64,000 nt of DNA from Escherichia coli. GTDB lineage: Bacteria > Pseudomonadota > Gammaproteobacteria > Enterobacterales > Enterobacteriaceae. Location of the stretch: NCBI RefSeq assembly GCF_044324875.1, contig NZ_CP172186.1; one strand, given 5' to 3'. Position 1 is the first letter of the stretch. Each line of letters begins with the position of its first letter. Below are positions 9,786 to 56,495 of the stretch, one piece after another. The translations under genes were made by a program, and so were the position numbers. The notes beneath the pieces were generated by a model. It was not told the origin of the DNA. It searched no databases and saw only the letters and a list, made by a program, of their open reading frames with translations.

Positions 9786-10565
9786 TTAACGCGTTTTTTC
9801 GCTGCTTTCCACTACCGGGGGATTTTTCCTCAGTGACTCTCCCTGAAGGACCACTCGGTGTGAGTTATGTACCAGTCTGTCCAGGATGGCATCTGCTGTT
9901 GTTGGGTTCTCCATCAGACCATGCCATTTATCTACCGGGAACTGGCTTACCACTATCGTGCTGCTTTGTCCGTAACGATCCTCTATGAGCTCCAGAAGGT
10001 CATTACACTGGGCGTTACTTAACTGTTCCAGCCCCAGATCGTCCAGGATTAGAACCTGTATTTTTTGCAACTGTTTCAGATATTTCAGCCAGCTGCCATC
10101 AACACGTCCCTGAGCCAGTTGTTCCAGTAATCGCCCGGTTCTACAGTACCGGACGCTGTGTTTCTGTCGACATGCCTGTTCGCCCAGCGCATTGGCTATC
10201 CAGCTCTTGCCACATCCTGTCGGACCGGTTATCAGCAGGTTTTTCCTGTGGGTTATGTAGTGGCCGTTCAGCAGTTCTCTCATCTGTTCAGCCCGCAGAC
10301 CTCTTGAGGCCGGATAGCGCAGCCCTTCCGGTGTTGCCTGGTATTTCAGGCCGGCATTTTTTCTCAACCGTGCCACACGGCTGTTTTCCCTGCTCAGAAG
10401 CTCGTCATCAACCAGCAGCGTCAGCCTTTCCTCGAACGACAGTTCGTCGTAGGTCTGAGGCGTTTCCCGCTGCCGTATCAGGCTCCCGGCCATCGCCGGG
10501 AGTTTCAGTTGGGTCAGTTTGTTTAACAGGTTATCACTCATACTGTTGTTCCTTCTGTCAGTGGT
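9786..10565 (-). CDS. istB: IS21-family helper ATPase IstB
   Basis: Walker A GPTGCGKSW, DnaC-like AAA+; start taken at MSDNLLNKL inside the 332-aa ORF. Confidence 0.9.
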   Translation of the reverse strand, partial: TTDRRNNSMSDNLLNKLTQLKLPAMAGSLIRQRETPQTYDELSFEERLTLLVDDELLSRENSRVARLRKNAGLKYQATPEGLRYPASRGLRAEQMRELLNGHYITHRKNLLITGPTGCGKSWIANALGEQACRQKHSVRYCRTGRLLEQLAQGRVDGSWLKYLKQLQKIQVLILDDLGLEQLSNAQCNDLLELIEDRYGQSSTIVVSQFPVDKWHGLMENPTTADAILDRLVHNSHRVVLQGESLRKNPPVVESSEKTR

Positions 10566-12204
10566 AGTAGCCCGGACCACGCAGGTTTTCATGCTCTGAA
10601 GCATATGCCGGATGTTGTTCGCCCTGGCGGGATAATGGAAGCTCCAGGTTCTCCCGATGGTGACGCAGCAGATTGTCGATAAAGCGTCTGTCAGGGGCGT
10701 TATAGTGCAGGGCAACGTAACAGGCCTTTTCCAGCCGTTCCGGGCCGTATTTTTTCTGAAGTGCCAGCAGCCCCAGAACTGCACGATAAGCCAGTTCCGG
10801 ATGGGGTTTTGCCTTCAGCATGGATTCAACCACCCGGCCTGTGGACGGGCCCGTACGTTTTCCCTGCTCGATCAGGCGTTCCGGTGTCCATGTCCCGTGC
10901 TGCCGGTGGCGCTCTGGCATGTGAAGCGGATTGGTTGTGTGTTTATATTCATGTGTGCTGCGCGGATGTTGCGCCACACACTGCCCCTTGTGCCAGAGCT
11001 GTACCACCGACTGCCCCGCCTTCAGTGACAGACGCTGACCGACCAGTTCGTGTGGAACGGAGTACCAGTGACGGGCATATTCAACGTGGTAGTCAGGGCC
11101 AACCTTCACAGCTTTGTATTCCGTGTATTCATAAGGTGCCAGAGGCAGCGGAGAGAGTGCTGGCGCATCCAGTATGCGGAAGCGTTCTGCACGGGTTTGA
11201 TTGCCGTACCCCTTCATTGGCCGGTTATTCATGTCTGTCAGTAACTCCCTAAGGCGCGCATTCAGCGCCCTGAGCGTGTGGAAGGTTTCATTACGGATGC
11301 GGGCAAGAAGCCATCGTTCAACGATGAGGACGCCGTTTTCTGCTTTTGGTTTATCTTTAGGTTTGCGTGGTCGGGCCGGGATGATAACCGTGCCATAGTG
11401 CTCAGCCAGTGCCTGATAACTGTCGTTGATGACAGGCTCATATCGATCGGCCTTTTTCACTGCGCTTCTGAGGTTATCGGGGATGAGCAGCTTCGGTACG
11501 CCGCCCAGGAAGGTCAGGCAACGGCTGTGGGCATTTAACCATGACATCATGTCCTGACCTTCGCACGCTTCAACGTAGGTATAGTTGGACGCCCCCATTA
11601 CGGCCACGAAGATTGCCACGCGGCGTATCTCACCGGTGTCCGGATTAATAACAGGAACCGTAGGACCACAGAAGTCGATAAAAAGCTTTTCGCCGGCACG
11701 ATGCTCCTGGCGCATGGAGAGACGTCGCGTTTTTTTCCACTCCCGGTAGCAACGGCAGAAGTGCGAGTATCCCATCGCTTTGTTACCCGCCTGTGCCTTG
11801 TATTCCATCCACAACAGTTGCCGCGTCACACCTGGTTTTCTCATTTCCGTATCGAAGTACAACATGTCAGGCATTACAAGCTCTGATGCAAAGGTGTCTT
11901 TGGGCGGAAAAATGAGTTTCTCCAGCGTGTCATGGGATATATCAGCAGGTAATGGCCATGACAGAGAAGAGGCTTTGAAGCGGGCAAGAACCTCAAAAAC
12001 GGTTGAGGCGCTGATGTGTAACGTCAGTCCGATACAACGGTTAGTCAGCTTCTTGTCGAACTTGAGCTGAAGGATCTTAAAACAGGTTTCCATAGTGCTC
12101 CTGGATTTTCTCTTTCTGGACATTGACGTCTCCACTGGTTTAAACACGGCAATGGAGACTGTGGTGAAAAGAGTTAATTCCCGGAGTGACTGGCAGGATG
12201 CCAA
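10558..12204 (-). CDS. istA: IS21-family transposase IstA (true start probably internal, METCFKIL at ~12093)
   Basis: N-terminal HTH, LSWPLPA motif, DDE core; 2-nt spacing to istB. Confidence 0.9.
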   Translation of the reverse strand: MASCQSLRELTLFTTVSIAVFKPVETSMSRKRKSRSTMETCFKILQLKFDKKLTNRCIGLTLHISASTVFEVLARFKASSLSWPLPADISHDTLEKLIFPPKDTFASELVMPDMLYFDTEMRKPGVTRQLLWMEYKAQAGNKAMGYSHFCRCYREWKKTRRLSMRQEHRAGEKLFIDFCGPTVPVINPDTGEIRRVAIFVAVMGASNYTYVEACEGQDMMSWLNAHSRCLTFLGGVPKLLIPDNLRSAVKKADRYEPVINDSYQALAEHYGTVIIPARPRKPKDKPKAENGVLIVERWLLARIRNETFHTLRALNARLRELLTDMNNRPMKGYGNQTRAERFRILDAPALSPLPLAPYEYTEYKAVKVGPDYHVEYARHWYSVPHELVGQRLSLKAGQSVVQLWHKGQCVAQHPRSTHEYKHTTNPLHMPERHRQHGTWTPERLIEQGKRTGPSTGRVVESMLKAKPHPELAYRAVLGLLALQKKYGPERLEKACYVALHYNAPDRRFIDNLLRHHRENLELPLSRQGEQHPAYASEHENLRGPGYYH

Positions 12205-12408: not shown

Positions 12409-12876
12409 TTATTTCTTATTCTGTTTTCTCCAGGTCCATGGTGGTACCGGATTTTTATCTGCCCATAATCCCCGCTTCAGGGCGCGGGCATCACGCTGGA
12501 GCGGCGGGAGAGTATAGTCATTATTGTAGTCCGGGTACACCCAGGCAGCGCCGTTACGGACCTGCCAGCGATTTGCTTCTGTGCCGTCAGCGGTATAGAC
12601 CCGGCCGAGAATACGGCCATACCTGTCTGTCTGCGCGTATTGCACGGTTACGGGCTTTCCGGCCACCAGGTCCTTCAGCTGAGTGGCTGACCAGCGTCCA
12701 AAGGGCTGTTTCTTTTCCGGTGCATCAATATTAGCCAGACGGACCCTGACAGGCTTTTTGTCCTGTAATATTTCCAGCGTATCACCATCAAGAACGCGGA
12801 TGACGTGCCCCTGAATCTGTGCGGCACAGAGAGAAGCGGAAAAAATAATGGTGAGTGAAAAGATATATTTTATCAT
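12409..12876 (-). CDS. nuc: Secreted thermonuclease (staphylococcal nuclease/SNase-like) Nuc
   Basis: 155 aa, signal peptide, VIRVLDGDT and RLANIDAPE motifs typical of SNase fold. Confidence 0.8.
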   Translation of the reverse strand: MIKYIFSLTIIFSASLCAAQIQGHVIRVLDGDTLEILQDKKPVRVRLANIDAPEKKQPFGRWSATQLKDLVAGKPVTVQYAQTDRYGRILGRVYTADGTEANRWQVRNGAAWVYPDYNNDYTLPPLQRDARALKRGLWADKNPVPPWTWRKQNKK

Positions 12877-12978: not shown

Positions 12979-13659
12979 ATGAATTCCAGTACGCTGATAT
13001 CCGTGATGATACGGCAACAGATATCCGGTGACGGTATGCAGGAACATATTGATTATCAGATTGAGAAATATCAGTTCAGGGCCAGGAATGAGTCACCGCG
13101 ACTGATGCGCCAGTGGGAAGATGTCATGCGTGAATGCCGTGATACCGGAGCAGGAGCCAGGGAGCGGCTGCGGATTGCCTTACTTAATGTTGATTATGTG
13201 ACCAGTTTTGAACTGCCGTTTCGTCTGCTGTTAACCCGGACACCGCAGATGATTGACAGCGTGCGGCGGGAATGGCAGCTCAGCCAGAAAAAAGTCGTAT
13301 TCAATGAGCGGCAGCGGGGATGTGTATACAGTCTGCAGAATGACTTATCCGGCGTGCCGGATAGCTTCAGTTACAGTCTTGCGACGCGAATACGGCGGGT
13401 GGACAGCTATGGCATGACGACGCGTTGTTTCACTGATATAGCCGGGCAGGTTAAAGCCCCGACAGCACGGCTGAAACTGGCGCTGGAAAGCGGGTTAATT
13501 GTCACCGCGCTGGATGGTCTGTTCTGGCTTGGTATTCAGCGTATTGCCGCAGATGTGCAGCGGCTGCGTCAGTCCGGAATGACAATCATCACCCGGGATG
13601 TTGAGGTCTCAGACTCGCTGACCGGAACCACACGGGTTGTTTCCGGGTACAGACTTTGA
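12979..13659 (+). CDS. Hypothetical protein, possible C-terminal DNA-binding helix
   Basis: 226-aa ORF divergent from nuc with AT-rich shared upstream region; no recognised family. Confidence 0.45.
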   Translation: MNSSTLISVMIRQQISGDGMQEHIDYQIEKYQFRARNESPRLMRQWEDVMRECRDTGAGARERLRIALLNVDYVTSFELPFRLLLTRTPQMIDSVRREWQLSQKKVVFNERQRGCVYSLQNDLSGVPDSFSYSLATRIRRVDSYGMTTRCFTDIAGQVKAPTARLKLALESGLIVTALDGLFWLGIQRIAADVQRLRQSGMTIITRDVEVSDSLTGTTRVVSGYRL

Positions 13660-13860
13660 TTTATGCAACAAAGTATCGCAGCGTCGAATATGAGCTATGG
13701 CCAGATTTTTGTTAATCGTGGTTGTTGCAACATGTAAGGCGAATGACCACACTATTCTGGTACGCTCGTAATCACGCTGAAATTCTGCTTCCTGTCCTGC
13801 CGTGATGAGTTCCGACCAGGACATACGGCGAAGTGTATGTCTGTCAGTAATATCCGTCAT
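13609..13860 (-). CDS. Hypothetical small protein (83 aa), last gene of a four-ORF cluster
   Basis: Start overlaps stop of upstream ORF; no recognisable domain. Confidence 0.35.
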   Translation of the reverse strand: MTDITDRHTLRRMSWSELITAGQEAEFQRDYERTRIVWSFALHVATTTINKNLAIAHIRRCDTLLHKSKSVPGNNPCGSGQRV

Positions 13861-14072
13861 GAGCTCTCAGCCTCCTCCTTCGTATTTCCGTCAGAAACAC
13901 AAACGCCCCGCAGAGAAAATTCGCCAACATTCTCCTTTTTAATGGCGCGCAATGCATCGCGGCAGGCCCGTTCGGTATGAAAGGCCTGGCTGTGCACCGC
14001 CAGTGTGGGCTGACGGGCATCACCGGAAGAGACATTAAAGGGCGATGAAAGCCAGAAAATCAGTAGCCACAT
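13857..14072 (-). CDS. Hypothetical small secreted protein (71 aa)
   Basis: N-terminal hydrophobic signal-like segment; coupled with neighbours. Confidence 0.35.
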   Translation of the reverse strand: MWLLIFWLSSPFNVSSGDARQPTLAVHSQAFHTERACRDALRAIKKENVGEFSLRGVCVSDGNTKEEAESS

Positions 14073-14075
14073 GCG

Positions 14076-14459
14076 TCACACCTCGTCCTTTTTATGCGGG
14101 TATCTGGACAGAATATTGAGCGCCTGTAATGGCGCTTCATGCATTTCACGGATACAACGGGCATCGGTGATATTTTCCCGGTAATGTGTGGTTTCCAGCA
14201 TCATATGATGCATATGGAGCATCCGGGCCAGGGCTGCGCGGAGTTCTTCAATATGTTGTTCATGGGAATGCTGGCGGGGCTGTATCCGGCAGAGAGGGAT
14301 AACCTCCACATCATCCGGGTGCGCGCGAAGCCACGCGTCAGTGACTGCAATGTCGTCAGTGTAAAACCATGTGCCGGATGTCCCGTTGGCCAGAAAACGC
14401 ATTTTCCAGGCTTCTGGGGTGGCGGTTGTGTTGTTATCTTTCATGGTGCCACCACTCAT
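14076..14459 (-). CDS. Hypothetical protein (127 aa), His/Met-rich segment
   Basis: ORF with ATGA overlap to upstream ORF; HMHHMMLETTHY stretch. Confidence 0.45.
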   Translation of the reverse strand: MSGGTMKDNNTTATPEAWKMRFLANGTSGTWFYTDDIAVTDAWLRAHPDDVEVIPLCRIQPRQHSHEQHIEELRAALARMLHMHHMMLETTHYRENITDARCIREMHEAPLQALNILSRYPHKKDEV

Positions 14460-14647
14460 TCAACAGGCTTAATGCTGTCCAGGCGCAGTCTGCTCAGACT
14501 GTCGTGGCTGCCACAGCGGCGTCCAGTGCTTTTGCTGTAGCACTCCTGCCCCCTGATACACCATGCCGTTGGCGTTTCGTAGAGGCTGACACGTCGGGTT
14601 TTATCTTTAATGATGAGAAGCCCGGTGTGAGTTTTTGTCTTTTTCAT
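14456..14647 (-). CDS. Hypothetical small basic protein (63 aa)
   Basis: First ORF of the coupled cluster; weak support. Confidence 0.3.
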   Translation of the reverse strand: MKKTKTHTGLLIIKDKTRRVSLYETPTAWCIRGQECYSKSTGRRCGSHDSLSRLRLDSIKPVE

Positions 14648-14901
14648 CGGTGGGGTACAAACGCAGAAATTTTGTTGTCATTACATCATCAGTTTTAGCC
14701 TGCAGAGACGCTGAAAAATCAGCGTTTTCAGACCCTGTTCAGGTTAGTGAATATTCTTGCCTGGCCTTTCGGCAATATCAATCCCCTGATGTGTGCACAC
14801 GTAGTCACTTTCCGGCTTTATTTCTGTCCCTGACACAAAATACGTGGTGGCATGAAAAGGATTGTGGCGGACAGGAAAACGATTAGAATAGCGGCGGGCG
14901 C

Positions 14902-15195
14902 TTGAGGCTGTATGCCGAAAGCGTTTTGTGGACGGCATGTAGCAGAAAGCCCCAGGCGATTTTTTTATCAATCAACCCAGGGCCCACTGTAATGCCTAGA
15001 CAACATTATAGTAGCCCGATGACGGCCGAAAGGCAATGGAGGGGCTGCGATGCCACAACGAACGTTTTTAATGATGTTAATCGTCGTCTGTGTGACGATA
15101 CTGTGTTTTGTCTGGATGGTGAGGGATTCGCTTTGCGGATTTCGTATCGAGCAGGGAAATACGGTGCTTGTGGCAACGTTAGCCTACGAAGTTAA
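14902..15195 (+). CDS. Possible pndC (mok-like) overlapping reading frame of the pnd locus
   Basis: ORF in alternative frame overlapping the Hok-family toxin gene, as in hok/mok loci; real start uncertain. Confidence 0.35.
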   Translation: MRLYAESVLWTACSRKPQAIFLSINPGPTVMPRQHYSSPMTAERQWRGCDATTNVFNDVNRRLCDDTVFCLDGEGFALRISYRAGKYGACGNVSLRS

Positions 15196-15202
15196 ACGTT
15201 AA
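15050..15202 (+). CDS. pndA: Hok/Gef-family type I toxin PndA
   Basis: Hand-translated 50 aa MPQRTFLMMLIVVCVTILCFVWMVRDSLCGFRIEQGNTVLVATLAYEVKR; GGAGG 9 nt upstream; not in ORF track (<60 aa). Confidence 0.85.
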   Translation: MPQRTFLMMLIVVCVTILCFVWMVRDSLCGFRIEQGNTVLVATLAYEVKR

Positions 15203-54986: not shown

Positions 54987-56495
54987 TCAGTGCAGCAGCG
55001 TATAGCTGTCCTCGTCGATGGGAGAGATGTAATGGGCCGCCAGCGGATCAACCTGCCCGCTGTTGATTTTTCCCAGCAGATGCTGATTTCGTGTCATGCC
55101 GCCCAGCTCCCGGTGCCAGTATGTTCTGGCCTCAATACGCCCCTTTTCCCGGTACAACTGGAAAAAACGGGCATCCGGGGAGATGACTTCTGCGATCACC
55201 GTTCGTCCTGTCACGCCACGCCAGCAGTGCGGGCAGCCTTCATGATTTCGCAGATATACCTGGTCCGGGTTGCAGACGCTTTCCACCAGGTGCCGTTCAT
55301 CATCCGTGCGCTCGGTAGCCACCTCATGCCAGGGGCGACGGCAGTGCGGACATATCAGCTGAACCAGACGCTGGCTCAGCAGGCCAATGAACAGTTGCGG
55401 GTCGGCAATCATCCTGGCCTGTACCCCCTCCATCTCAAGACGTTCGAGGATGTTAATCGGGTCGTTCGCATGGATGGTGGTCAGCATCAGATGGCCGGTC
55501 ATGGCGGCTTTTATTGCCGTAATGGCGGAATCGTGGTCGCGGATTTCACCGTTCAGGATCCCGTCGGGGTCAAGACGCAGTGCCGATTTGATGGAGTCCA
55601 CCCAGCCCTGCGCGGTATCCATGACGGCGGTCTGAATGGCACCGGGAATACGCCCTTCCGGCGGGGATTCGATGGTGAACAGCCTGCGACGGGGAAGAAG
55701 AATATCGCCGGTGTTGTTGAAGCCGTACTGTTCAAGGTACGCCGCAGAGGCGGTTCTCAGCGTGGTGGATTTTCCTGAGCCGGTGGGGCCTGAGAGCGTG
55801 ATAATGCCTTCAGGGCGCTGCAGAATGCGGCGAAGAGTGCGCTCCTGGTCAGGGTGATAGCCCAGCATACTGAAGGTCGGGATTTGCTGACTGTCATCCT
55901 TGATCAGACGGAGCACAGCATATAGGCCGCCCACACAGGGGTAGTGGGAGTAGCGTGCACCAAACAGACCGGCCAGTTTCAGATACTGCTCTGAAAGACG
56001 TGCATCCTGAGGCACCCCGGGATCAAACTGTGTGCCCTTGATAACATCGGTCATGCCGGAATAGGTGGCCCCCAGTAATTCGAGGCCTTCTTCTTTCCGG
56101 AGGATATCGAGCACTTCCAGTTCGCCGTGAACCCGGGCTTCCACATAGGTGAAGTCCGTGTTGTCTCGTCCCGGGGTCATATGAAGGTCTGAGGCACCAA
56201 GAGAGGCAGAATGGCGGATATAGCCGAGCATTTTCTGCTGTACCGGGTTAATGACGCTTTCATCACCGGCGGTTGTGGTGTCCTGTCTGAGGCGGGCTAT
56301 CACATCCAGGGTGGTGAATTCAAAGTCTCCCACACGCCCCTGATGACGTGCGCGCAGGCGGGTCAGATATTCCTGGACGGCACGCAGATGTTTTTTTCCC
56401 TCCACGACCCTGACCCGCAGATGACCGGTTTTATCTGTGTCGATAGCCACATAATCCAGAATGTCATCCGGTGGCAGGTCTGCAGGCTCCAACAT
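54987..56495 (-). CDS. pilQ: PilQ pilus-assembly ATPase (GspE/PilB family)
   Basis: 502 aa, Walker A LSGPTGSGKSTT, tetracysteine motif. Confidence 0.85.
   Translation of the reverse strand: MLEPADLPPDDILDYVAIDTDKTGHLRVRVVEGKKHLRAVQEYLTRLRARHQGRVGDFEFTTLDVIARLRQDTTTAGDESVINPVQQKMLGYIRHSASLGASDLHMTPGRDNTDFTYVEARVHGELEVLDILRKEEGLELLGATYSGMTDVIKGTQFDPGVPQDARLSEQYLKLAGLFGARYSHYPCVGGLYAVLRLIKDDSQQIPTFSMLGYHPDQERTLRRILQRPEGIITLSGPTGSGKSTTLRTASAAYLEQYGFNNTGDILLPRRRLFTIESPPEGRIPGAIQTAVMDTAQGWVDSIKSALRLDPDGILNGEIRDHDSAITAIKAAMTGHLMLTTIHANDPINILERLEMEGVQARMIADPQLFIGLLSQRLVQLICPHCRRPWHEVATERTDDERHLVESVCNPDQVYLRNHEGCPHCWRGVTGRTVIAEVISPDARFFQLYREKGRIEARTYWHRELGGMTRNQHLLGKINSGQVDPLAAHYISPIDEDSYTLLH

What the first reader, a model, noticed from the sequence alone, without database searches (positions are those of the whole stretch)
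13609..14647. Four tightly coupled small ORFs of unknown function between nuc and the pnd locus
Four consecutive minus-strand ORFs (63, 127, 71 and 83 aa) have overlapping or nearly abutting stops and starts (14459/14456, 14076/14072, 13860/13857), which suggests one translationally coupled operon. One has a signal-like N-terminus and one a His/Met-rich patch. I recognise none of them. Plasmid maintenance and transfer regions often hold small anti-defence or regulatory genes.
Basis: inference. Interest (0 to 1): 0.5.

Follow-up and report, generated by a model that had tools for sequence, protein, structure and literature searches.

The report
Plasmid operon ending in ANR-like regulator
These are four real, tightly packed small genes on an IncB/O/K/Z resistance plasmid; three resemble accessory genes from the early regions of temperate phages, the last is a diverged relative of the ANR proteins that bind and silence AraC-type and H-NS regulators, and published transposon data suggest the block is not needed for plasmid upkeep or transfer.

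Summary
Four minus-strand ORFs lie at 14647-13609: A 63 aa, B 122 aa from its conserved start, C 71 aa, D 83 aa. All four are under purifying selection. They recur as an A-B-C-D block in two lineages about 72% identical in DNA, on roughly 470-590 E. coli/Shigella plasmids.

The window copy is truncated. A 266-bp deletion removed a fifth upstream ORF (80 aa) that nearly all relatives keep.

D is not an orphan. It is a diverged homologue of the ANR (AraC negative regulator, Aar) family:
- profile-profile probability 90.9%, E 1e-6, gapless over 53 columns
- NCBIfam ANR E down to 2e-7 for family members, just under the curated cut-off
- a confident three-helix model
- ANR proteins dominate the structural neighbours

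A, C and the C-terminal half of B belong to unnamed families found in early accessory regions of lambdoid and Mu-like prophages.

Published TraDIS on pMS7163B shows insertions in B, C and D are tolerated and not depleted after conjugation.

Best reading: a phage-derived accessory operon of small protein-binding modulators, with D acting as an anti-regulator on a host H-NS-type or AraC-type protein. That function is inferred, not shown. Interest is modest.

The parts
14456..14647 (-). Gene A (63 aa). A small phage-type protein with the motif KTHTG..I......L.ET..W....E.Y.K..GRR.G.....RL.L.SI.P.
   Evidence: ORF. PGAP annotates it as a hypothetical protein. pN/pS 0.24 with no stops against paralogue A'. 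PHROG 1226 E 7e-17 and PHROG 7520 E 9e-17. 100 phage records at 40-53% identity. 252 viral-contig relatives, either about 67 aa stand-alone or the N-terminal part of a 121-aa protein. No Pfam, NCBIfam or PDB match.
14076..14444 (-). Gene B (122 aa from the conserved start; the longest ORF runs to 14459). It has two parts: an N-terminal beta-beta-alpha-beta domain, and a C-terminal helical hairpin carrying the conserved RMLHMHH..L....Y......C.RE.HEAP.QA motif.
   Evidence: ORF; PGAP CDS of 369 nt. pN/pS 0.32. Full-length relatives are almost all from E. coli, at 57% identity or more. A profile search of 1.84e9 representatives gave 69 hits. About 50 of them match only the C-terminal ~50 residues, with E from 3e-8 to 9e-4. 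AlphaFold2 mean pLDDT is 72.7. Foldseek against PDB and AFDB50 found no informative neighbour. No phage tblastn hit.
13857..14072 (-). Gene C (71 aa). A short hydrophobic N-terminus followed by a domain with two conserved cysteines (ACR....KK.N.....LRGVC).
   Evidence: ORF; PGAP CDS. pN/pS 0.17 and 83% amino-acid identity to C'. PHROG 3766 E 2.5e-11. 41% identical to an unannotated 56-aa ORF between EaD and Eaa in Klebsiella phage 2b LV-2017. No Pfam or PDB match.
13609..13860 (-). Gene D (83 aa). A diverged ANR-like three-helix protein with its core at residues 14-66 and a variable, disordered C-terminal tail. Its start overlaps the stop of C (ATGA). Its last 51 nt overlap the convergent plus-strand gene.
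   Evidence: ORF. PGAP does not annotate it in the identical plasmid. A 252-nt ORF at the equivalent position is annotated in pMS7163B, matched by gene lengths and spacing. pN 0.33 against pS 0.76, with no stops, versus D'. NCBIfam ANR_neg_reg NF033650: E 7e-3 for this copy, and 1.4e-5, 1.3e-4, 2.1e-7 and 1.2e-6 for four relatives, covering model positions 3-52 of 54. hhalign of the D family against 10 annotated ANR proteins: probability 90.9%, E 1.1e-6, 53 gapless columns. AlphaFold2 gives pLDDT above 90 for residues 10-65, with helices 15-27, 31-44 and 48-70. 19 of Foldseek ranks 11-50 are 'ANR family transcriptional regulator'.
14744..14788 (-). Remnant (last 14 codons plus stop) of the 80-aa ORF that precedes A in nearly all relatives. 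The junction of the 266-bp deletion lies at about 14788-14790.
   Evidence: Pairwise alignment with L002 (NZ_CP103594) shows 266 extra bases there. They carry the 5' leader and codons 1-66 of the 80-aa ORF. Intact copies are called in L002 and L005-L009. Only the two best plasmid hits match the window in one piece.
14753..14781 (-). Promoter-like site (TTGATA-17-AAGAAT, 9 of 12 matches) upstream of A, inside the retained 3' end of the deleted ORF. It is a candidate only.
   Evidence: Consensus scan. The same site is present in the undeleted relative. The number of sites found is no higher than in shuffled sequence, so this is not evidence of function.

Best explanation
The region is an accessory operon of an I-complex (IncB/O/K/Z) conjugative plasmid. 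In most plasmids it has five small genes (an 80-aa ORF, then A, B, C, D); here a 266-bp deletion has reduced it to four.

Shown:
- All four ORFs are protein-coding genes under purifying selection.
- They travel together as a block in two diverged lineages.
- B-C and C-D are spaced for translational coupling.
- A, C and the C-terminal half of B belong to unnamed families. A and C have homologues in temperate phages (A in lambdoid ea regions). The three B-domain relatives whose contexts were read lie in prophage early regions, two just upstream of gemA/mor in Mu-like prophages.
- D is a diverged homologue of the ANR family. Its archetype is Aar of enteroaggregative E. coli.

Inferred:
- D folds into the ANR three-helix bundle. 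Like Aar, it probably acts by protein-protein binding rather than DNA binding. It would sequester or alter a host transcription regulator, an H-NS-family silencer or an AraC/XylS-family activator, and so retune host or plasmid gene expression.
- No AraC-type or H-NS-type gene is annotated on the identical plasmid, so the target is most likely chromosomal.
- A, B and C are most likely further small protein-binding modulators co-expressed with D, as is typical of phage early accessory genes. Their partners are unknown.
- The operon is dispensable for replication, maintenance and surface conjugation, so any benefit is conditional on host or niche.
For: Coding status and block conservation:
- pN/pS is 0.17-0.43 only in the annotated frames, with no stops.
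- The A'B'C'D' paralogue block is present in L003, L013 and L014, and A'B'C' in the IncF plasmid L004.
- 469 plasmid records match at high identity, 455 of them predicted conjugative.

Coupling: ATGA overlap between C and D, a 3-nt gap between B and C, and Shine-Dalgarno-like motifs.

D as an ANR homologue:
- NCBIfam NF033650 hits for five family members, E from 7e-3 to 2e-7, across nearly the whole model.
- hhalign against 10 annotated ANR proteins gives probability 90.9% and E 1.1e-6. The alignment is gapless and in the register that lines up ANR signature positions A14, E18, A26, W30, A33, N42 and C53 of Aar with A22, E26, A34, W38, A41, N50 and C61 of the D family.
- The AlphaFold2 three-helix model has pLDDT above 90 over the core.
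- ANR proteins dominate the Foldseek neighbours outside D's own family.

ANR mechanism, from the literature: Aar binds the central region of AggR (PMC4983702). Aar also binds H-NS and modulates its silencing (PMC5570504). A PerC/ANR-like gene on a PICI represses the LEE (PMC11773190).

Phage kinship of A, B and C.

Dispensability: in pMS7163B, genes 560, 570 and 580 have the same lengths and spacing as B, C and D. Their Log2MPM is about 13. Their Log2FC after conjugation is +2.08, +1.29 and +1.62, within the range of neutral genes such as traE, proQ and psiA.

No AraC-type or H-NS-type gene is annotated on the 100%-identical plasmid.
Against: - D scores below the curated NCBIfam cut-off: 16.2 bits for the window copy and at most 30.7 in the family, against 32.
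- Two of the seven ANR signature residues are replaced throughout the D family (Aar W45 becomes L53; R49 becomes H or K at position 57).
- The window copy also carries G22 and T34 at two alanine positions. The corresponding sites in Aar (A14, A26) were among those whose modification abolished activity. This copy may be weakened.
- hhalign against Aar alone is weak (probability 15%). Individual Foldseek E-values to ANR proteins are 0.04-0.4.
- No binding partner is identified, and canonical ANR genes usually accompany an AraC-family gene.
- There is no direct evidence of transcription, and no promoter was mapped. The deletion may have removed the native promoter.
- Nothing links A, B or C functionally to D beyond co-location. 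One B homologue (P0123) occurs alone.
- TraDIS gave no phenotype.
- The correspondence to pMS7163B rests on identical gene lengths and spacing. That record could not be fetched.
Confidence: 0.45

Rival explanations
1. It is a counter-defence or host-takeover cassette. The small phage-type proteins would inhibit host immune systems or competing mobile elements when the plasmid or a phage enters a cell. The ANR-like fold of D would be reused as an inhibitor of a non-regulatory target.
For: A, C and the C-terminal domain of B have homologues in temperate phages or prophage early regions. From general knowledge, not tested here, such regions hold many known anti-defence and host-shutoff genes. The proteins are small, lack enzyme domains and are co-expressed. 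The block sits in a variable accessory stretch alongside nuc, hok/pnd and dqlB.
Against: The block does not lie among the ardA, psiB, ssb and antirestriction genes of this plasmid. Insertions in B, C and D are not depleted after conjugation, whereas insertions in ardA, ardB/klcA and ssb are. There is no match to any described family with such a role (PADLOC holds defence systems, not anti-defence genes). The recipient in that screen was a K-12 derivative, so the test is weak.
Confidence: 0.15
2. It is a toxin-antitoxin, addiction or exclusion module, like its neighbours pnd and dqlB. One small protein would be toxic or membrane-active (C has a hydrophobic N-terminus) and another would neutralise it.
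For: The ORFs are small and tightly coupled, and lie next to two type I toxin loci. C has a hydrophobic N-terminal segment and conserved cysteines.
Against: No TA family matches in NCBIfam, Pfam or PADLOC. Transposon insertions are abundant in 550, 560, 570 and 580 of pMS7163B (Log2MPM about 13). An antitoxin gene would be expected to be depleted. Natural deletions (this window, and the B-D fusions P0025 and P0036) are tolerated. The B homologue P0123 and the phage homologues of A occur without the other genes.
Confidence: 0.05
3. It is hitch-hiking phage-derived cargo with no current role for the plasmid. The genes would persist because they are neutral and linked to the transfer region.
For: There is no phenotype in TraDIS. 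The window copy has lost the first ORF and perhaps the promoter. The tail of D is repeatedly rearranged. D is left unannotated by PGAP.
Against: Purifying selection is strong on all four genes across saturated synonymous divergence (pS 0.6-0.76, pN 0.10-0.33). The order A-B-C-D is retained in two lineages and at two different insertion sites.
Confidence: 0.15

Closest known systems
ANR (AraC negative regulator) family: Aar of EAEC 042, Cnr of ETEC, Rnr of Citrobacter rodentium (NCBIfam NF033650)
   Same: D shares the small size and the predicted three-helix core. It keeps the signature residues that correspond to Aar A14, E18, A26, W30, A33, N42 and C53, at the family level. The profile-profile alignment is gapless and has the same helix 2-3 loop length as Aar. 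Like many ANR genes, D is carried on a plasmid or mobile element.
   Different: D scores below the curated family cut-off. Aar W45 and R49 are replaced by L and H/K. D has an extra 13-residue conserved N-terminal segment (LRRMSW) and a variable C-terminal tail. No AraC-family gene is annotated on the plasmid. D is the last gene of a multi-gene operon; the ANR genes inspected here were viewed with only 150-bp flanks, so their operon status was not examined. Binding activity is untested.
PerC-like/ANR-like gene EcCIMP1_025 of the E. coli phage-inducible chromosomal island EcCIMP1 (PMC11773190)
   Same: Both are small helical regulator-like proteins carried by a mobile element rather than a virulence island. 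The authors of that paper suggest their gene is an ANR-type repressor acting on host virulence regulation. PerC-family proteins also appear among D's structural neighbours.
   Different: No sequence comparison with EcCIMP1_025 was made here. That gene has an experimentally shown effect (LEE repression); D has none.
Unnamed accessory genes of temperate-phage early regions: lambdoid ea/nin regions (PHROG 1226, 7520 and 3766) and the region upstream of gemA/mor in Mu-like prophages
   Same: A and C match these PHROGs. Homologues of A sit in the ea region of phage mEp460, and a homologue of C lies between EaD and Eaa in Klebsiella phage 2b. Relatives of the C-terminal domain of B sit directly upstream of gemA in two Mu-like prophage contigs. 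They share the same style of short, tightly packed ORFs.
   Different: Here the genes lie on a conjugative plasmid and in a fixed A-B-C-D combination that was not found in any phage. The phage families have no known function, so the comparison gives provenance, not mechanism.

Membership tests
ANR family (NF033650; Santiago et al. 2014/2016) | Score at or above the curated NCBIfam cut-off (32 bits) | tested here: not met
   The window copy of D scores 16.2 bits (E 7e-3). Relatives score 21.7-30.7 bits (E 1.3e-4 to 2.1e-7), over model positions 3-52 of 54. These are significant E-values, but all fall under the cut-off.
ANR family | Homology to bona fide members by profile-profile comparison | tested here: met
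   hhalign of the D family (20 sequences) against 10 proteins annotated as Aar or ANR gives probability 90.9%, E 1.1e-6 and 53 gapless columns. Against Aar alone the probability is only 15%.
ANR family | Seven highly conserved signature residues (consensus A10, E14, A22, W26, A29, W43, R47; PMC4983702) | tested here: inconclusive
   The D family consensus keeps five of the seven (A22, E26, A34, W38, A41). W43 is replaced by L53, and R47 by H or K at position 57. C51 and the conserved N are kept (C61, N50). The window copy keeps only three of the seven, because it has G22 and T34.
ANR family | Small protein (under 10 kDa) made of three alpha-helices | tested here: met
   D has 83 aa, with a conserved core of about 60 aa. 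AlphaFold2 predicts helices 15-27, 31-44 and 48-70 with pLDDT above 90, plus a short N-terminal helix and a disordered tail. This is a prediction, not a solved structure. The D' clade is longer at 107 aa.
ANR family | Direct binding to an AraC/XylS-family regulator and/or H-NS, with repression of the activator's regulon | not testable with these tools
   This needs two-hybrid or pull-down assays and reporter assays, as in PMC4983702 and PMC5570504.
ANR family | Occurs alongside an AraC-family partner gene | tested here: not met
   No AraC/XylS-family or H-NS-family gene appears in the feature table of the 100%-identical plasmid NZ_CP100501. That PLSDB table is incomplete. E. coli chromosomes encode many such regulators, so a chromosomal partner is not excluded.
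PHROG 1226/7520 (A) and PHROG 3766 (C): phage proteins of unknown function | Significant full-length match to the family profile | tested here: met
   A matches PHROG 1226 at E 7.1e-17 (residues 1-63 against 1-63 of 67) and PHROG 7520 at E 9.2e-17. C matches PHROG 3766 at E 2.5e-11 (residues 1-65 against 2-64 of 66).
Type II toxin-antitoxin module | Match to a known toxin or antitoxin family, and an antitoxin gene that does not tolerate disruption | tested here: not met
   No TA family hit in NCBIfam, Pfam or PADLOC. Insertions are abundant in genes 550-580 of pMS7163B (published data, mapped by gene length and spacing).
Plasmid leading-region anti-defence genes | Location in the leading region next to oriT, among ssb, psiB and ardA, and a requirement for establishment in the recipient | tested here: not met
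   In the identical plasmid the block lies between trbA and excA, apart from the ardA/psiB/ssb cluster. Log2FC after conjugation is positive for B, C and D, whereas it is -3.1, -3.4 and -2.5 for ardA, ardB and ssb.

The most novel reading that the evidence does not exclude
The operon could be a portable 'regulator-hijack' kit that widespread ESBL-carrying IncB/O/K/Z plasmids bring into each new host. In this reading the ANR-like D neutralises H-NS-family silencing or a chromosomal AraC-type activator. A, B and C would be previously unrecognised partner modulators or anti-defence proteins from the phage early-gene pool. Plasmid carriage would then rewire host virulence, stress or xenogeneic-silencing programmes. 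This would define a new ANR subfamily that works without a cognate AraC partner, and would give a first function to three unnamed phage protein families.
Probability: 0.12. Interest if true: 0.6.

Novelty: new variant of a known kind. Interest (0 to 1): 0.3.

Why it matters
IncB/O/K/Z plasmids are common carriers of ESBL and AmpC genes in E. coli and Shigella from people, poultry and food. If D behaves like Aar, these plasmids carry a small anti-regulator able to alter H-NS silencing or AraC-type virulence and stress regulators in every host they enter. That would bear on plasmid fitness cost, host range and pathogen behaviour. It would also show that the ANR family extends beyond virulence loci with a cognate AraC gene.

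On the practical side, the D family is either unannotated or carries meaningless names in public databases ('neurotensin receptor R8', 'flagellar biosynthesis protein FlgM'). Re-labelling it as ANR-like would be a real annotation gain. Without experiments, the block remains a conserved accessory operon with no phenotype in the one genome-wide screen available.

Tried and rejected
- Pfam scans of all four proteins and of the D family alignment found nothing.
- PADLOC found nothing.
- NCBIfam found nothing for A, B, C, the 80-aa ORF or their paralogues. It also found nothing for ten carriers of the B C-terminal domain.
- PDB sequence searches with D, the D profile, the A profile, the B profile and C gave no hit below E 0.09.
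- Foldseek of the B model against PDB and AFDB50 returned only B's own family and noise.
- blastn of the region against phage genomes gave no match. tblastn of B against phages gave no match.
- A viral-contig scan with C confirmed no relatives.
- tblastn of a B-domain relative (P0145) against phages matched only its unrelated N-terminal part.
- Word-indexed protein searches with D, and with the D profile, never left the E. coli plasmid family, so they could not bridge to ANR. tblastn of P0032 against plasmids likewise stayed in the family. The bridge came from NCBIfam and from hhalign against ANR proteins fetched separately.
- Promoter and terminator scans were no better than shuffled sequence in the window, in the undeleted relative and in the paralogue.
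- The leader upstream of A has no notable fold (z -1.45).
- GC content is host-like at 50-53%, so there is no AT-rich signature of an H-NS target.
- pMS7163B (CP026855) is not in the local collections. The match to its TraDIS table therefore rests on identical gene lengths, gaps and overlaps.
Full report
**What is there.** The window matches the IncK2/Z (I-complex, MOBP/MPF_I) plasmid pLH50-c-A of E. coli at 100% identity across the queried 13400-14900. The finding lies in the accessory stretch between trbA and excA.

- A, 14647-14456, 63 aa
- B, 14459-14076, 127 aa as the longest ORF
- C, 14072-13857, 71 aa
- D, 13860-13609, 83 aa

The stop of C and the start of D share ATGA. B and C are 3 nt apart, and purine-rich Shine-Dalgarno-like motifs precede C and D. 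The reported A/B overlap is an artefact of taking the longest ORF. All B homologues start at MKD/MND and PGAP annotates 369 nt. B therefore starts at 14444, 9 nt after the stop of A.

The flanks are as stated. A thermonuclease gene lies at 12409-12876. The hok-type pnd ORF lies at 15050-15202, with an Rfam sok match at 14896-15052. It converges on D and overlaps its last 51 nt.

**Are they genes?** Yes. A second version of the block, about 72% identical in DNA, occurs in other plasmids. In L003 it reads A' (63 aa), B' (121 aa), C' (63 aa) and D' (107 aa), in the same order and orientation.

Nei-Gojobori counts between the two versions:

| Gene | dN/dS or pN vs pS |
|---|---|
| A | 0.11 |
| B | 0.15 |
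| C | 0.09 |
| D | pN 0.33 vs pS 0.76 (saturated) |

Third codon positions carry most of the differences. A six-frame control shows that only the annotated frame combines no stop codons with low pN/pS (0.24, 0.32, 0.17, 0.43). The long antisense ORFs at 14139-14540 and 14369-14698 have pN/pS of 1.2-1.8 and are shadows of the real genes.

The block is present in 469 plasmid records at megablast level, 455 of them predicted conjugative, mostly from E. coli and Shigella.

**The unit is truncated here.** Nearly all relatives carry 266 more bases upstream of A. These hold the leader and first 66 codons of an 80-aa ORF. In the window only its last 14 codons remain (14788-14744). Only the two closest plasmid hits match the window in a single piece. 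The ancestral operon therefore has five genes.

The promoter is unknown. Consensus scans are no better than shuffled sequence in the window, in the undeleted relative and in the paralogue. The A leader has no notable fold.

**Gene D.** PGAP leaves D unannotated in the identical plasmid. Other sources name its homologues 'neurotensin receptor R8' or, for the D' clade, 'flagellar biosynthesis protein FlgM'. These names find no support in any search here.

NCBIfam's ANR_neg_reg model (NF033650) hits five family members, always over model positions 3-52 of 54:

| Protein | E-value |
|---|---|
| Window D | 7e-3 |
| P0004 | 1.4e-5 |
| P0019 | 1.3e-4 |
| P0032 | 2.1e-7 |
| D' | 1.2e-6 |

All of these fall below the curated 32-bit cut-off; the best is 30.7 bits.

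I fetched Aar from pAA of EAEC 042 and nine plasmid genes annotated as ANR. Aligned against the 20-sequence D family, hhalign gives probability 90.9%, E 1.1e-6 and 53 gapless columns. Against Aar alone the signal is weak.

The register places the published ANR signature (PMC4983702) as follows:

| Aar residue | D family residue |
|---|---|
| A14 | A22 |
| E18 | E26 |
| A26 | A34 |
| W30 | W38 |
| A33 | A41 |
| N42 | N50 |
| C53 | C61 |
| W45 | L53 (replaced) |
| R49 | H or K at 57 (replaced) |

The window copy itself has G22 and T34 at the two alanine positions. The corresponding sites in Aar were among those whose modification abolished activity.

AlphaFold2 predicts helices 15-27, 31-44 and 48-70 with pLDDT above 90, and a disordered tail. 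In Foldseek against AFDB50, after D's own family, 19 of ranks 11-50 are 'ANR family transcriptional regulator' and three are PerC-family. Individual E-values are 0.04-0.4.

The C-terminal tail beyond residue ~61 varies among relatives. In P0032-type plasmids a phosphoethanolamine transferase/DUF2569 pair follows directly after a D copy with a different tail.

I conclude that D is a diverged homologue of the ANR family. It is a new subfamily rather than a member by the curated definition.

**Genes A, B and C.**
- **A** matches PHROGs 1226, 7520, 5148 and 4183 (E 7e-17 to 1e-8). It has 40-53% identical homologues in 100 phage records, in the ea region of phage mEp460 for example, and in 252 viral contigs. 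These are either ~67-aa proteins or the N-terminus of a 121-aa protein.
- **C** matches PHROG 3766 (E 2.5e-11). It is 41% identical to an unannotated 56-aa ORF between EaD and Eaa in a Klebsiella phage. Both share the hydrophobic N-terminus and two cysteines.
- **B** has full-length relatives almost only in E. coli plasmids. One more distant copy (53% identity) stands alone in a T3SS/PerC/ProQ context.
- A profile search of 1.84 billion representatives shows that the C-terminal ~50 residues of B form a domain found at the C-termini of about 50 diverse small proteins (E 3e-8 to 9e-4). This stretch carries the His/Met patch, within the motif AL.RML.MH.LMM.K.NH.ASFYDA.C.REMNEAP.QA.
- Three contexts were inspected. 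Two lie directly upstream of gemA/mor in Mu-like prophages, and one lies in the early region of an integrase-bearing prophage.
- The B model (pLDDT 72.7) is a beta-beta-alpha-beta domain plus a helical hairpin. It has no informative structural neighbour.
- None of A, B or C matches Pfam, NCBIfam, PADLOC or a solved structure.

The fixed A-B-C-D combination was not found in any phage.

**Experimental evidence from the literature.** Lian et al. 2023 (PMC10286972) ran TraDIS on the IncB/O/K/Z plasmid pMS7163B. Their Table A lists genes 530 (pnd, 153 nt), 550 (243 nt), 560 (369 nt), 570 (216 nt), 580 (252 nt), 590 (681 nt, complementary strand, 51-nt overlap with 580) and 600 (468 nt). These lengths, gaps and overlaps are identical to pnd, the 80-aa ORF, B, C, D, the ECs1377-family gene and nuc here.

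Insertion density before conjugation is high (Log2MPM about 13). The post/pre-conjugation Log2FC values are:

| Gene | Log2FC |
|---|---|
| 550 | -0.78 |
| 560 | +2.08 |
| 570 | +1.29 |
| 580 | +1.62 |

Values for 560-580 sit in the range of neutral genes (traE +1.9, proQ +2.2, psiA +1.8); 550 is slightly negative but far from the depletion of required genes. By contrast, tra genes fall by 5-6 log2 units, and ardA, ardB and ssb by 2.5-3.4.

The block is thus dispensable for maintenance and surface conjugation between K-12 strains. I could not fetch CP026855 to confirm identity by alignment.

**Mechanism.** Aar binds the central, dimerisation-associated region of AggR and other AraC/XylS activators (PMC4983702). 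It also binds H-NS directly and modulates H-NS silencing (PMC5570504). A PerC/ANR-like gene on a phage-inducible island represses the LEE (PMC11773190).

By homology, the most likely action of D is protein-protein sequestration of a regulator. No AraC-family or H-NS-family gene is annotated on the identical plasmid (the feature table is incomplete). The target would therefore be chromosomal, with H-NS-family proteins the obvious candidates.

For A, B and C the evidence gives provenance (the phage early accessory gene pool) but no mechanism. I infer that they are small protein-binding modulators co-expressed with D. Confidence levels:
- about 0.95 that these are real co-located genes
- about 0.8 that D is an ANR homologue
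- about 0.45 for the full functional statement

**Rivals.**
- A counter-defence cassette fits the phage kinship. It does not fit the location away from the leading-region genes, or the TraDIS result, although that screen used a permissive recipient.
- A toxin-antitoxin module is unlikely. There are no family matches, insertions are tolerated in every annotated gene, and natural deletions exist.
- Neutral cargo is contradicted by strong purifying selection and by the order being retained at two different insertion sites.

The new points are these:
- D is a diverged, mis-annotated ANR-like protein.
- The other three genes belong to unnamed families with homologues in temperate phages and prophages.
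- The window copy is a deletion variant of a five-gene unit.
- Published data show no conjugation phenotype.

This is a modestly interesting lead and needs a binding experiment.

Noticed in passing
window 14788-14790 (junction); compare L002 7344-7586: A 266-bp deletion relative to nearly all related plasmids removes the leader and 66 of the 80 codons of the ORF upstream of A. TC microhomology lies at the junction. Only the two closest plasmid hits share the deletion.
   Followed up: yes
window 12979/13036-13659 (+): A convergent gene of the NCBIfam ECs1377 family (E 3.4e-90; PHROG 24243; faint HTH_39) overlaps the 3' end of D by 51 nt. In pMS7163B TraDIS the equivalent gene, 590, has Log2FC +2.94. 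Any functional link to the operon is unknown.
   Followed up: partly
L005-L009 5457-7640; L003 7592-9782; L014 1143-3333: In some I-complex plasmids a phosphoethanolamine transferase (Sulfatase domain, 475-514 aa) and a DUF2569 gene are inserted immediately after D, or in place of the block, and D then has a different C-terminal tail. Whether this transferase affects polymyxin susceptibility was not examined.
   Followed up: no
L003 4643-5768; L013 5377-6282; L014 5359-6282; L004 5000-5768: A paralogous A'B'C'D' block (about 72% DNA identity) sits at a different site, between nuc and dqlB/trbA. In L013 it lies next to an S6-family (SPATE) autotransporter. In an IncF plasmid (L004) it lies next to IS66.
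   Followed up: partly
public protein databases (P0008, P0014, P0085-P0104; UniProt O87514, A0A085P7C8): D-family proteins carry the names 'neurotensin receptor R8' and 'flagellar biosynthesis protein FlgM', which nothing found here supports. PGAP leaves the D ORF unannotated in the identical plasmid.
   Followed up: yes
pMS7163B gene 610 (55080-55256 of CP026855), equivalent to the 177-nt ORF at L001 4684-4860 beyond nuc: This small ORF next to dqlB has the largest positive TraDIS value in the neighbourhood (Log2FC +4.69 after conjugation). The paper devotes a supplementary figure to insertions there. The reason was not looked into.
   Followed up: no
P0025, P0036 (metagenome/Logan proteins): These are B-D fusion proteins joined between B's LHMHH motif and D's SFALHV. 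They indicate natural internal deletions that remove C and parts of B and D.
   Followed up: no
L101 4001-4234; L102 4001-4669: Carriers of the B C-terminal domain lie directly upstream of gemA and mor in Mu-like prophages. This suggests a conserved but unnamed early-region domain with variable N-terminal partners.
   Followed up: partly
window 10558-12204 (-): A 548-aa minus-strand ORF whose product looks like an IS21-family IstA transposase. A related plasmid has annotated IS21-like istA/istB between trbA and dqlB (L002). The ORF is not in the PLSDB feature table of the matching plasmid and was not examined further.
   Followed up: no
window 14139-14540 (+) and 14369-14698 (+): Long antisense ORFs (133 and 109 aa) overlap B and A and are also open in the paralogue. 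Their pN/pS of 1.2-1.8 shows they are non-coding shadows.
   Followed up: yes
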